NCBI GenBank assembly: GCA_951406725.2
Contig: OX597820.1
Location: forward strand, 64,728,001-64,792,000
DNA length: 64,000 bases
Source: Octopus vulgaris
Lineage: Eukaryota
Reading direction: 5' to 3'
Under the pieces are notes generated by a model. That model was not told the origin of the DNA. It saw only the letters and a program-made list of their open reading frames with translations, and ran no database searches. The translations under genes were made by a program, and so were the position numbers. This document shows, piece after piece, positions 18,050-46,579 of this stretch (within the stretch, counting starts at the first letter, position 1; each line of letters opens with the position of its first letter).

Positions 18050-18722
18050 TTTTTTTTTCTACTCTAGTCACAAAGCCCGGAATTTTGGGGGAGAAGACAA
18101 CTGGATTGGATCGACCAAAGTACGCAACTGGTACTTAAATTTATCGACTTCGAAGGATGAAAGACAAAGTCCACCTCGGCGGAATTGGAACTCAGGGTGT
18201 AAAGACAGACGAAACGACCACAAATATTCTTTTCTCCTTTAGGCACAAGGCCTGAAAGTTTTGGGGAGGGGGCCAGTCGACTAGATCAACCCTAGTGCGG
18301 AACTGGTACTTAATTTTATCGACCCCGAAAGGATGAAAGATAAAGTCGAGCTCGGCGGAATTTGTATTCAGAACATAAAGACAGACGAAGACCGCTAAGA
18401 ATTTCGCCCGGCGTGCTAACTTCTCTTGGCACAAGGCCCGACATTTTGGGGGAGAGTGCCAGTCGTTTAGATCGACCCCAATACGCAGCTGCTATTTAAT
18501 TTATCGACCTCGAAAGGATGAAAGGCGAAGTCGACCTCGACGGACTTTGAACTCAGAACGTAAAGCCAGACGAAATAACGCTAGGCATTTCGCCCGGCGT
18601 GCTAACGTCTCTGCCGGCTCGCGGACTAAACGCCCACAGGGGCTAAACAGACAAAGGGACTACAACGTAACGGCAGACGAAATTCAGCTAAGCATTTCAC
18701 CCGGCGTGCCAGTTCGCCGCCT
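18050..18722 (-). mobile_element. Cluster of ~4 SINE family A copies
   Basis: Repeated ggtacttaa..ttatcgacc.cgaaaggatgaaag.caaagtcgacctcggcggaa.ttgaactcag blocks. Confidence 0.85.
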
Positions 18723-23821: not shown

Positions 23822-24757
23822 TTGGGTTGTCCGGAAAGTTCGTACCGATTTATAGTAGCTTACATTTCGACTTATTTTAGAACTTGGTTGAGTCCATAAA
23901 ATAGGATTTGACTACACCTCCATTTAGAGCACAGTTTAAGCTATTGGGGAAGAGTAGAAATACCAGATAGCTGGCTTGAGGGAATGGAAGTGGTATTGTC
24001 TAAAATCAGGTGGAGGAACTTAAAGATGAATTTGGAAATGTATATATGTTAATAAGGGGAAGGTTCGAACAGGAAAAGAGGGACAAACTAGAAATAATAT
24101 ATGAGATAAAATATGGGGACTTAGTGATTTTCGCAGTGAAATAGGAAAAAGGACACGTAAGGGATGTTGATTCATGGGGCAGTTAACATCACTTTCATCT
24201 TTCATTTTTCACCCTTTTTCTCATCTTATCATACGATTATTTTTTTCATGTTCTCTATCTCCATTATGTTGCAGTGTCCCCTCTGTGTAGAACCGTATGG
24301 TGAATAGAGCACAGATGAAGCTATCTTTTCGTGGAAGAAGGTTTATGTTCCTATAATCTGTGTTAATTCTGTAACCCTTTAAAATGGAAGATAAGAAAGT
24401 TGATTTTCGGCATTTGATGCTTTCAGAACCAGACGAAAATTGCTGCAGCTCGGCTGGGATGTGTTACCCCACCCTCCATATTCACCAGATATTGCTCCTT
24501 CGGATTTCCACTTACTCAGGTCTCTGCAGAATAGTCTTAATGGTAAAAAATTTCAATTCCTTGGATGACGTAAAAATATACCTTTGCCATGAAACCACCT
24601 CAATTCTGGGAAGAGGGTATCTTCAAGTTAAAGGAAAGATGAAGACGCATGGTGCAACAAAATGATTCATATTTGGTTGATTAAAAATGTAATGGCAATT
24701 ATTTATTGGCCTTTTTCTTTTCTTTAATAACCGGTACGAAATTTCCGGACAACACAA
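23822..24757 (+). mobile_element. Internally deleted mariner element with both TIRs
   Basis: TIRs ttgggttgtccggaaagttcgtaccg and cggtacgaaatttccggacaacacaa, TA on both sides. Transposase start MEDKKVDFRHLML is joined to C-terminal GWDVLPHPPYSPDIAPSDFHLLRSLQNSL. Confidence 0.9.
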
Positions 24758-25571
24758 TATTTAATGTGTTAAAAACCAAACGAGAAGTTGGAATTTGATA
24801 AGTTTTGGTAAAATGAAATTCAAATGGAAAGCGATATTCATTATACAGCAAAATTTAATTTCTAAACAATGAATAACAGCACAATTCTTTTGTAGAGGGT
24901 TACTAATCATGCACCAAAAACCGATTCGAGTACATGATTAATACATATGTTAATCGATTGCAGAAAGGTAAATTCTAAGTTGAAACAGGCATTGATTTAA
25001 CGGAGAATATCACAAAACAATGTAAGACATCTTGATCAGTGTAAGGAAGCAGTTGTCTAATCACTTTTCCGCCTGAATGTCAAAAAGGCTCTGTAAACTC
25101 TTAGACTATGCCATAATATTACACACTTTACGTAAGCCAGCGGGGCACTCTCTGAGCGCTCTAATATTTTCACAGTGAAAGTACTGGCCGCCTCGGACAC
25201 TCGGCAAAGAGAACTCTTGTGTCCGTAGATAGAAAAAGAAAGAAAATGGAATGTACAAGATTTTTTTTTTTTTATTATTCACTATTTTTGCTTCGACTCA
25301 TTGTACATTAGTCCCTCACGGATGGGATCCAGTACAAACAGCTGTGGTGCATCATTGGTACAGATGTATCTCGTCGGGTTACATCTAGAAATGTACCTGG
25401 TTTTTTTAATATGGCTTTCGCTAATATTGATTAGAATACAATTTGGCAGTTGTCCGTAACTAAACACATTACCGAGAAACTTGTGTTAAATTGAAGAACA
25501 CTTCTCGTAAAAGTAATAAATTTATTACCCAGGATATATTACATACATACATACATATATATATTTCTCAT

Positions 25572-25800
25572 TGCTCTTAGACCCTCCAGTACTGTCAACA
25601 AAACGGGTAAAAAGATTTCTCCAAACATCCCGATTGATAGCCTTCCTCCTAGCCCCCTTCGGGTCAACTCCCATCGCTAGCGTGTCCAACTCGAAGGTAA
25701 AACATTACATTTTTCTTGGTATTTCTTTCGGCTTTTTTCTACCTCCAGCATCCACCCCTTCAAAATAGCGGTATGCATCACAACTTTTCTTGCTGAGTAG
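25572..25800 (-). mobile_element. Decayed RTE-clade LINE 3' end
   Basis: Minus strand reads GRKKPKEIPRKM*CFTFELDTLAMGVDPKGARRKAINRDVWRNLFTRFVDSTGGSK, typical of an RTE ORF C-terminus. Confidence 0.6.
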
Positions 25801-26089
25801 GATAATATTTAGACATCCTGTGTGATAGAAATCGCGACATGCCAAAGGGTGGAGAACTCAGGAGAGCAACGATTATTCGGTATAGTAAAGAATCCTCACC
25901 GATGGTAATGAAGACAAGCCATCTTGGAGAAGGAAATATTTAGTGTGGACTTACAGTCAGCTGATAACATTCATTTGCACAGACAAAATTTTGAAGGTGT
26001 TATAGTTTCATAGAAATGGGCGATATGCCGCTAAGACATTTTCTAACCGTGCTCGGCGCCATACCACTGTTAAAATATTAAAAATAATA

Positions 26090-26131
<42 letters not shown>

Positions 26132-26339
26132 GATAAATATCAAAGTGAGTTATATACAGTAGCGGTAACACATCGTGACGTATTTTTGCCATGTCAATAT
26201 GGCTAACCCCTAAGGGTGGATGCTACTGTAGTTTTTAGCCCCAGGAGGACACACTCCTCCAGCTGGCCATAGACACACTATCTGTGTCCTGTCAGTATTT
26301 GCAAAGGGAAGTCATCCTTCCCGTCTTCAACTTATGATA

Positions 26340-26384
26340 CACACGGACTCGAGTTTCGAGGTATTGACCTCTCGTCAGCGTGTG
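26340..26384 (-). ncRNA. Type I hammerhead ribozyme, mirror copy
   Basis: Exact reverse complement of 26793-26837. Confidence 0.9.
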
Positions 26385-26792
26385 ACAATCATAGTTGTCG
26401 CCGAGAATTAGATTTCCTTCACAAATACTTATACTTTTTCCAGCGTCCACTGTCGCTGATATTGAAAAAGTGAAATCAAACAATGATAAATATCAAAGTG
26501 AGTTATATACAGTAGCGGTAACACATCGTGACGTATTTTTGCCATGTCAATATGGCTAACCCCTAAGGGTGGATGCTACTGTAGTTTTTAGCCCCAGGTA
26601 GCATCCACCCTTAGGGGTTAGCCATATTGACATGGCAAAAATACGTCACGATGTGTTACCGCTACTGTATATAACTCACTTTGATATTTATCATTGTTTG
26701 ATTTCACTTTTTCAATATCAGCGACAGTGGACGCTGGAAAAAGTATAAGTATTTGTGAAGGAAATCTAATTCTCGGCGACAACTATGATTGT

Positions 26793-26837
26793 CACACGCT
26801 GACGAGAGGTCAATACCTCGAAACTCGAGTCCGTGTG
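26793..26837 (+). ncRNA. Type I hammerhead ribozyme, canonical core
   Basis: cacacg-CTGACGA-gaggt caat acctc-GAAA-c tcga g-TC-cgtgtg: stem I cacacg/cgtgtg, intact CUGANGA and GAAA, stem II gaggt/acctc, short palindromic stem III, GUC cleavage triplet (predicted cut after 26831). Stem I can extend via tatgat/atcata. Confidence 0.9.
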
Positions 26838-26998
26838 TATCATAATTTGAAGACGGGAAGGATGACTTCCCTTTGCAAATACTGACAGGACACAGATAGT
26901 GTGTCTATGGCCAGCTGGAGGAGTGTGTCCTCCTGGGGCTAAAAACTACAGTAGCATCCACCCTTAGGGGTTAGCCATATTGACATGGCAAAAATACG

Positions 26999-27030
<32 letters not shown>

Positions 27031-45350: not shown

Positions 45351-46164
45351 TTTAAAAAAATTCCTTTCTAATATAGGCACAAGACCTGACATTTTGAGGT
45401 AGTGGCCAGTCGATTAGATCGACCCCAGACGCATCTGGTACTTAATCTATCGACCCCGAATGGATGAAAGGCAAAGTCGACATCAGCGGAATTTGAACTC
45501 AGAACGTAAAGAAAAACGAAATAATGTGCTTTGAAATATTCTTTTCTACTCTAGACACAAGGCCGAAATTTTTGGAGAGGGGACCAGTCGATAAGATCGA
45601 CACCAGTATGCAGCAGCTGTTACTTAATTTATCGACCCCGAAAGGATGAAAGGCAAAGTCGACCTCGGCAGAATTTGAAATCAGAACGTAAAGACAGACA
45701 AAATAACGTGCTTTGAAATACTGAAATAGCTAATACGGTATTGCTATTATATGAGAGTTGTTTGTATTTATTTGACCGGATATCACTCTGATTCACTACT
45801 TTTATAACGGGAGGCGTCCCAATCATGGCAGTCCTATTTTATTAGTGACCTCTATAACTACATTATCTACTGCAGTAGTTCCAACATTGGCTGCAACAAT
45901 GTTTTTGGCCATGAAGCTTTTTGATTCTTATTTTAGTCTACAGGACCCTTATAGACCTTCGACGTTTAAGAGACTCCTAATGCATTATTATAATTAAATA
46001 TTATTAATCGGAATTGTATATTAATAGAATTTTTGTATTGTAGGAACATAACTAATTTTATTGCGCATAAAAATTCCCAAAAATCTTTTATAGAAACACC
46101 AAACCCCTCAGGTACATAAGCTCCGCAGCTGAGAACTACTGATGTGTCTATTGTCTGTATGTAT

Positions 46165-46579
46165 AGCGGCGAGCTGGCAGAAACGTTAGCGCGCCGGGCG
46201 AAATGCGTAGCTGTATTTCGTCTGTCGTTACGTTGTGAGTTCAACTTCCACCGAGGTCGACTGTGCCTTTTATCCTTTCGGGGTCGATAAATTAAGTACC
46301 AGTTACGCACTGGGGTCGATGCAATTGAATTAATACCTATGTCTGTCCTCGTTTGTCCCCTCTATGTTTAGCCCCTTGTGAGTAATAAAGAAATAGGTAT
46401 TTCGTCTGCCGTTACGTTCTGAGTTCAAATTCCGCCGAGGTCCACTTTGCCTTTCATCCTTTCGGGGTCGAGGAATAAAGTATCGGTTTCGCACTGGAGT
46501 CGATGTAATCGACTTAATCCCTTTGTCTGTCCTTGTATGTCCCCTCTATGTTTAGCCCTTTATGGGCAGTAAAGAAATA
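46165..46579 (+). mobile_element. SINE family A (Meta-domain-like core), dimeric insertion
   Basis: ggcgagctggcagaaacgttagc...gagttcaa...gccttt(c)atcctttcggggtcga...aagtacc; second unit starts at gtatttcgtc; flanking direct repeat tattgtctgtat at 46149 and 46580. Confidence 0.9.

What the first reader, a model, noticed from the sequence alone, without database searches (positions are those of the whole stretch)
26778..26850. Hammerhead has an extended stem I with internal loop and a palindromic stem III
Seen: canonical CUGACGA/GAAA/GUC core. Stem I extends (tatgat/atcata) past a UGU/U internal loop, loop II reads (U)CAAU(A), and stem III is only ACUCGAGU, which is self-complementary. Established: loop II to stem I contacts accelerate natural hammerheads, and very short stem III motifs cleave as double-hammerhead dimers. 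Inference: cleavage would be efficient mainly in multimeric transcripts, releasing unit-length RNA. A competing hairpin gacaa-ctatga-ttgtc (26778-26793) overlaps stem I and could act as an off-switch.
Basis: partly seen in the sequence, partly recalled or inferred. Interest (0 to 1): 0.75.

Follow-up and report, generated by a model that had tools for sequence, protein, structure and literature searches.

The report
Hammerhead retrozyme, Penelope-type inverted insertion
This hammerhead motif is the predicted self-cutting RNA of a young, protein-less jumping repeat of a known kind (a retrozyme) with hundreds of copies, likely pasted into TA repeats by a Penelope-type enzyme; it is predicted to cut best as a pair in tandem copies, and this copy sits in a mirror-image insertion that would likely keep it switched off.

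Summary
The type I hammerhead is real (cut predicted after C26831) and covaries across older subfamilies. It lies in a 353-nt non-coding unit, inserted here as a head-to-head pair (26129-27002) inside (TA)n, with a second hammerhead on the minus strand. The genome holds 439 exact copies of the core. Copies end at two fixed sites 46 nt apart: 25 of 29 inverted pairs use one of each, none uses one site twice. This is the Penelope 'tail' footprint, shared by young intact Neptune elements in the genome. The palindromic two-pair helix III is the ordinary metazoan type. The 'off-switch' hairpin is predicted only until stem I's 3' strand is made; its arm then extends stem I. This locus has one ribozyme per strand, so it cannot release a monomer, and read-through RNA would form a 408-bp duplex. 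Verdict: new member of the known non-LTR retrozymes. The scan reported the same kind several times elsewhere in this genome. Cleavage and circles are untested.

The parts
26129..27002 (.). Whole retrozyme insertion: two head-to-head arms of a 353-nt unit, 5' ends joined at 26598, 3' ends pointing outwards
   Evidence: 408-nt inverted arms 26172-26579/26598-27005; direct repeats at period 353
26598..27002 (+). Right arm, 1.15 units, 3' end at site 1 (unit position 353)
26129..26598 (-). Left arm, 1.3 units, 3' end at site 2 (unit position 46)
26129..26174 (-). 46-nt Penelope-type 'tail' between the two fixed 3' ends, present at this end only
   Evidence: tail concept from PMC11167929 and PMC8557442
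26784..26844 (+). Canonical type I hammerhead; predicted cut between 26831 and 26832
26333..26393 (-). Second hammerhead, identical over this span, on the inverted arm
26823..26830 (+). Palindromic helix III (2 bp plus UCGA loop as a monomer; 8-bp duplex, -10.7 kcal/mol, in a double hammerhead)
26810..26815 (+). Loop II UCAAUA; its last A is the inferred partner of unpaired U1.7 (26838)
   Evidence: both kept in 50 of 52 copies; contact described in PMC11875169 (passages)
26770..26859 (+). Long extension of stem I (26770-26783 pairing with 26846-26859) that closes the unit on itself; this copy has G>T at 26846
26778..26793 (+).
26094..26129 (.). (TA)n target, left
27003..27030 (.). (TA)n target, right

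Best explanation
The motif is the type I hammerhead of a young non-LTR retrozyme, a 353-nt non-coding unit present in hundreds of copies and likely inserted into (TA)n by a Neptune-clade Penelope-like reverse transcriptase. Shown: the unit, the family, the head-to-head layout, the two fixed 3' ends, the TA target, and purity of the units within each insertion. Inferred working cycle: tandem copies are transcribed; the unit between two ribozymes closes on itself through the long stem I; the two palindromic helix III halves pair as a double hammerhead and cut out a monomer; the monomer is ligated into a circle in which the lone ribozyme is mostly misfolded; the Penelope enzyme nicks both strands of a TA tract and primes at site 1 and site 2, copying past the unit junction, and the two cDNAs join head-to-head. 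This locus is likely a dead end: each strand has one ribozyme, and read-through RNA would fold as a 408-bp duplex.
For: Family: 439 exact 33-nt cores and 488 with a relaxed pattern, controls 0; copies mostly 97-100% identical; period 353, GC 42.5%, longest stop-free frame 93 codons; circular fold -112.5 kcal/mol, z -6.1, 0 of 100 shuffles as low. Ribozyme structure in 52 distinct copies from three subfamilies: 86.9% of cells paired, 7 of 18 pairs changed on both sides, slid controls 18-54%. Penelope footprint in 61 regions of contigs C1-C3: 29 head-to-head pairs, 25 of them site 1/site 2 and none with the same site twice; 25 of 32 single arms end at site 1; 76 of 90 3' ends abut TA. Older subfamilies use the same two ends. 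Autonomous partners exist: 16 of 150 scored GIY-YIG hits lie in 781-aa open frames with RT and a CxxxxCxxC linker, and a second family has 784-aa frames in 2 of 6 loci fetched; both end in (TA)n at two sites, and the 6 inverted pairs of the second family with both ends printed use one site each. Monomer bottleneck: 323 of 325 locus-by-site cases are pure at subfamily-diagnostic sites (213 expected if units were drawn independently); this locus carries a private variant in all 4 copies of one position. Folding costs.
Against: No cleavage, transcript end or circle was observed. 5' ends of insertions do not gather at the cut site (2 of 90 within 175-190, 4 expected). One locus (L200) shows the same mixed order of alleles in both arms, which fits a multimeric rather than a monomeric template. 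Purity also follows if sources are homogeneous arrays. A subfamily with a U4C core change has amplified, including an array of 8 or more units, and U4C lowers activity in vitro (PMC3088659, passage); the ribozyme was not needed for insertion by an anole Penelope protein in vitro (PMC11167929). No sequence similarity was found between the unit and the terminal repeats of the Penelope loci examined, so the partner family is not identified. The folding model lacks tertiary contacts, which favour monomer activity.
Confidence: 0.8

Rival explanations
1. Same element, but the ribozyme cuts efficiently as a monomer through its loop II-stem I contact; the palindrome is incidental.
For: Coral (0.8/min) and mussel (0.1/min) retrozyme ribozymes cut as single motifs, and two pairs plus a tetraloop is called the invertebrate type (PMC7229834). 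U1.7 and the last loop II A are kept in 50 of 52 copies.
Against: Model cost of the lone active fold is 6.6 kcal/mol against 1.2 for the double form, with a predicted core misfold. The axolotl ribozyme with this helix III build cut 22% in 1 h alone and better as a dimer. The one subfamily-wide loop change keeps self-pairing, a weak sign because it is a transition.
Confidence: 0.35
2. The template is an uncut linear multimer and the ribozyme is a passenger; no circle is involved.
For: No 5' pile-up at the cut; mixed allele order in L200; spread of U4C cores; ribozyme dispensable in vitro for a Penelope element.
Against: Diagnostic and private variants are fixed across all units of an insertion, which needs a one-unit bottleneck; arrays would shrink by 5' truncation without one; core and helices are conserved with compensatory changes across subfamilies about 20-25% apart.
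Confidence: 0.2
3. The upstream hairpin (26778-26793) is a selected off-switch for the ribozyme.
For: It is predicted at about 0.5 occupancy in nascent prefixes. In 23 older copies its register is 86% paired, and 7 copies show a two-sided change at one pair.
Against: Occupancy falls to 0.01 or less once the strand 3' of stem I is made and is 0.02 in the whole unit. The same arm pairs with the distal strand, where the covarying pair is never broken (23 of 23) against 5 of 23 broken in the hairpin, and a second hairpin pair is broken in 12 of 23.
Confidence: 0.2
4. The unit is only the detached terminal repeat (pLTR) of an autonomous Penelope element not yet found.
For: Xenopus retrozymes are related to pLTRs (bioRxiv 10.64898/2026.07.22.740005). 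Four loci abut Neptune sequence directly.
Against: Copies are pure tandem units with no ORF of their own; the four adjoining pieces come from at least two lineages and join at different points; Neptune terminal repeats seen here carry minimal U3-A8 ribozymes and do not resemble the unit.
Confidence: 0.1

Closest known systems
Metazoan non-LTR retrozymes (Cervera and de la Pena 2020, PMC7229834; coral 220-245, mussel 350-390, axolotl 330/350 nt)
   Same: Canonical type I hammerhead in each unit of a short, GC-poor, non-coding, highly self-paired tandem repeat; Penelope elements with minimal ribozymes in the same genome.
   Different: Expression and circles not shown here. About half of the sampled insertions are head-to-head pairs with two fixed ends in (TA)n; a word search of that paper found 'inverted' 0 times (supplements not read).
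Penelope-like elements, Neptune clade (PMC8557442; mechanism in PMC11167929 for a Poseidon element)
   Same: Inverted 5'-truncated copy, tail between two RT start sites (46 nt here, 30-40 described), microsatellite target, partial tandems.
   Different: No ORF; canonical rather than minimal ribozyme; no detected similarity to the terminal repeats examined.
Newt/axolotl satellite and double-hammerhead ribozymes (PMC4209133, PMC7229834)
   Same: Short palindromic helix III able to pair between tandem copies.
   Different: Two pairs plus tetraloop (as HHR_Amex2 and invertebrate forms), not the one-pair amphibian form.
Rfam Hammerhead_1 (RF00163)
   Same: Whole-model match, 32.2 bits, E 6e-6.
   Different: 1.8 bits under the gathering score.

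Membership tests
Type I hammerhead ribozyme | Conserved core CUGANGA, GAAA, NUH | tested here: met
   position 7 varies (C 8, U 44 of 52)
Type I hammerhead ribozyme | Helices I, II, III, with helix I open | tested here: met
   86.9% of cells paired, 7 of 18 pairs changed on both sides
Type I hammerhead ribozyme | Rfam RF00163 gathering score (34 bits) | tested here: inconclusive
   32.2 bits, E 6e-6, model positions 1-45 of 45
Type I hammerhead ribozyme | Self-cleavage after C17 | not testable with these tools
   only assembled contigs were offered, no raw reads
Metazoan non-LTR retrozyme | Tandem units of 150-450 bp, each with a canonical type I hammerhead | tested here: met
   period 352-353; 21 of 61 regions have 2-5 ribozymes in one arm
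Metazoan non-LTR retrozyme | Non-coding, GC under 50%, strongly self-paired monomer | tested here: met
   93 codons at most, GC 42.5%; z -6.1
Metazoan non-LTR retrozyme | Two consecutive ribozyme units at the locus ('active' copy as defined by Li et al. 2026) | tested here: not met
   this locus has one ribozyme per strand; met by other copies of the family
Metazoan non-LTR retrozyme | Expressed as linear and circular unit-length RNA | tested here: inconclusive
   contigs only, RNA status guessed
Metazoan non-LTR retrozyme | No primer-binding site or polypurine tract | not tested
   no LTR layout seen; PBS and PPT not searched
Penelope-type insertion (works like) | Two fixed 3' ends with a tail, inverted 5'-truncated partner, microsatellite target | tested here: met
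Autonomous Penelope-like element | RT plus GIY-YIG ORF | tested here: not met
   no such ORF in the unit or the window
pLTR-derived non-autonomous Penelope element | Similarity to the terminal repeat of an autonomous partner | tested here: not met
   blastn against 50 Penelope loci and 36 more found only separate or adjoining retrozyme insertions; only 150 of 6136 GIY-YIG candidates were scored
Minimal Penelope hammerhead (min-HHR) | Long helix II, short helix I, no tertiary loops | tested here: not met
   6-bp helix I, 4-bp helix II and conserved loops (definition)

The most novel reading that the evidence does not exclude
A viroid-like RNA circle, unrelated in sequence to its host retrotransposon, is gated by an obligate double hammerhead (on in multimers, off in the circle) and hijacks Neptune reverse transcriptase dimers through a structured 3' domain with two fixed priming sites. 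One enzyme complex can carry a retrozyme RNA and a Neptune RNA together, leaving fused insertions (L004, L099, L184) that record which enzyme families move it.
Probability: 0.3. Interest if true: 0.6.

Novelty: new member of a known kind. Interest (0 to 1): 0.3.

Why it matters
How animal retrozymes get back into the genome has been proposed (PMC7229834; bioRxiv 10.64898/2026.07.22.740005) but, in the parts of those papers read, not shown. A young family with fixed priming sites, intact candidate enzymes in the same genome and a published in vitro Penelope assay (PMC11167929) makes the route directly testable. The ribozyme's anatomy is ordinary, and the scan has already noted sister families with the same footprint in this genome.

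Tried and rejected
1) Cleavage footprint in DNA: the 26-mer just 3' of the cut has 930 exact hits against 439-488 for the core, which suggested truncation at the cut. Rejected: of 41 such matches fetched from 31 core-less regions, none began at the cut, 3 began 3-8 nt upstream, and the rest kept 24 or more of the 40 upstream bases, mostly as other subfamilies with a variant core. 2) Expression: no RNA holder listed. Four runs guessed to be RNA hold the unit as contigs; two contigs are 383 nt and one closes on itself at period 353, which fits a circle or a tandem equally. The unique left flank 24750-26080 had no cover in these runs, which proves nothing. 3) Partner by sequence: no similarity to Penelope terminal repeats. 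4) Partner by fusion: 2 of 61 census regions (L184, L210) and 2 loci from other searches (L004, L099) abut Neptune sequence. Not decisive: both element kinds use TA tracts (34 tracts in this window), so insertion beside an older copy with deletion explains them too, L210 especially. 5) 3' domain: the consensus fold keeps an 8-bp closing stem and two small hairpins, but only 2 of 15 pairs change on both sides, and the hairpin at site 1 is not in the consensus (its 5' end was fixed by my selection pattern), so a conserved RT-binding fold is unproven. 6) Hairpin count on alignment A1 (35.8%) was spoiled by a one-base offset between subfamilies and was redone on B and C copies only. Rows dropped: 5 of 57 (4 truncated, 1 shifted) for A1; 1 of 24 for A2; 6 of 39 with indels for A3. 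7) Rfam microRNA hits at the junction reflect the perfect inverted repeat. 8) Paper searches listed no paper on an octopus retrozyme; the library lacks most subscription journals and supplements were not read.

Full report
Observation. Read with standard numbering, C3 is 26799, helix II is four pairs with the six-base loop UCAAUA, G12 is 26820, C17 is 26831, and the unpaired U of the internal loop (26838) is the seventh base after the cut, U1.7. A Hoogsteen contact between U1.7 and the last A of loop II is described for full-length hammerheads (PMC11875169, passages); both bases are kept in 50 of 52 distinct relatives. Rfam gives no hit at gathering level in the window but a whole-model Hammerhead_1 match at 32.2 bits, E 6e-6, on both strands.

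Context. The motif is not solitary. 26129-27002 is one insertion of two arms of a 353-nt unit joined head-to-head at 26598, with a 408-nt inverted repeat, a second hammerhead on the minus strand and (TA)n on both sides. The genome is 2.8 Gb in 227 contigs; that it is an octopus is my inference from size and repeat make-up (recalled) and the scan's earlier notes. A DNA search gave 2542 candidates, 40 scored, with full-length matches mostly 97-100% identical. The exact 33-nt core occurs 439 times, a relaxed pattern 488 times, controls 0. The unit is 42.5% GC with no frame above 93 codons and folds as a circle at -112.5 kcal/mol, z -6.1.

Insertion footprint. I took the 61 regions on contigs C1-C3 listed (53 fetched already held; all selected for holding a ribozyme core). 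In one search, 29 are head-to-head pairs: 25 have one end at site 1 (unit position 353-3) and one at site 2 (41-50), 4 have one end elsewhere, and none uses a site twice. Of 32 single arms, 25 end at site 1, 3 at site 2 and 4 elsewhere. 76 of 90 3' ends abut TA; 5' ends are scattered. This locus is a typical site 1/site 2 pair. Two older subfamilies (about 73-89% identical to the unit) end at the same two sites. Frangieh et al. (PMC11167929, parts 1-2 of 4 read) showed that a Penelope protein nicks both strands of AT-rich DNA and starts reverse transcription at two internal sites whose spacing is the genomic 'tail'. Craig et al. (PMC8557442, passages) describe inverted 5'-truncated copies, tails and microsatellite bias.

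Candidate enzymes. A GIY-YIG search scored 150 of 6136 candidates; 16 lie in 781-aa open frames with RT, a CxxxxCxxC linker and GIY-YIG, which I call Neptune-type from the linker. They end in (TA)n, with a tail in 5 of 18 ends printed. A second family, 67.5% identical in protein, has 784-aa frames in 2 of 6 loci, and its inverted pairs also use one site each. Neither resembles the unit. Four loci join retrozyme and Neptune sequence directly; template sharing is one reading, insertion beside an older copy with deletion the other, and I could not separate them.

Template. At seven diagnostic positions in 77 loci, 323 of 325 cases with two or more copies are pure, against 213 for independent draws. 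This locus has a private C at unit position 335 in all four copies. Divergence is 1.0% within loci and 1.8% between them (including some alignment noise). A one-unit bottleneck, most simply a cut and ligated monomer copied round, explains this, but homogeneous source arrays do too, and L200 shows a mixed order repeated in both arms. 5' ends are not enriched at the cut.

Helix III. As a monomer it is two pairs with a tetraloop. Cervera and de la Pena 2014 (PMC4209133, parts 1-2 of 4) give this as the usual metazoan form and state the multimer-on, circle-off idea. Their 2020 paper (PMC7229834, Results parts 1-2 of 3 and passages) found coral and mussel ribozymes active alone and axolotl ones better as dimers. 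Constrained folding of 7 real tandems gives a cost of 0.7-1.2 kcal/mol for the double hammerhead, 10.2-10.3 for one monomer fold in the tandem and 5.8-6.6 in the circle. The double form is cheap because the inner unit closes on itself through the long stem I. The model has no tertiary terms, so I put dimer-favoured cleavage at about 0.6. In the lone form the predicted competitor is a misfold of the core itself.

The hairpin. It is predicted at 0.4-0.5 in most prefixes that stop before stem I is complete and at 0.01 or less afterwards. Its 5' arm then extends stem I; that extension is 86.6% paired in 23 older copies, with a C-G/U-A covariation never broken. The hairpin register is also 86% paired there, with the same base covarying but broken in 5 of 23. 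It may be a transient folding aid; a selected switch is possible but unshown.

This locus. With one ribozyme per strand it cannot release a monomer. Read-through RNA folds at -803.7 kcal/mol with the ribozyme inside the duplex, and forcing the ribozyme costs 81 kcal/mol. Sources of new copies must be among the 21 of 61 regions with two or more ribozymes in one arm.

Novelty. This is a new family member of the non-LTR retrozymes, with Penelope mobilisation already proposed and argued from phylogeny in vertebrates (bioRxiv 10.64898/2026.07.22.740005, parts 1-3 of 5). After forming this reading I looked up the scan's notes: sister families of 352-590 nt in this genome carry the same interpretation; no look-alike stretch was indexed. 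These notes are not support. Supplements of the cited papers were not read and may show inverted retrozyme insertions.

Noticed in passing
L061-L079 (for example L072:1281-5972): Young two-ORF Neptune-type Penelope family (479-aa ORF1, 781-aa ORF2) whose terminal repeat holds a minimal hammerhead-like motif with U3/A8 in place of C3/G8 and a palindromic helix III.
   Followed up: partly
L231:3045-5396, L232:3061-5412, L143-L172: Second young Neptune family (784 aa, copies 97-99% identical) with a degenerate minimal ribozyme and site 1/site 2 inverted pairs.
   Followed up: partly
L262:2061-4877 and L235, L241, L247, L249, L250, L253, L254, L257, L260, L263: Subfamilies with a CCGAUGA (U4C) core have amplified, including a 352-nt array of 8 or more units.
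   Followed up: partly
L004:309-1962, L099:883-1740, L184:1929-3703, L210:1-2557: Retrozyme joined directly to pieces of Neptune elements of at least two lineages; chimeric insertion or shared target with deletion.
   Followed up: partly
L157:409-631 next to a Neptune 3' end: Short retrozyme copy whose 5' end lies 3 nt before the cut site, tail to tail with a Neptune copy in one TA tract.
   Followed up: no
L008 and L009 (G000:C9, 6.3 kb apart): Two nearly identical insertions with the same flanks, probably a segmental duplication or assembly duplicate; L209 shows a similar pair.
   Followed up: no
window 18242-18612, 45356-45720, 46213-46579: Three tandem pairs of a 182-186-nt SINE-like repeat.
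   Followed up: no
window 26516-26661 and the whole insertion: The perfect inverted repeat would be a long double-stranded RNA if transcribed through, a possible source of small RNAs or an editing substrate; about half of the sampled loci share this layout.
   Followed up: no
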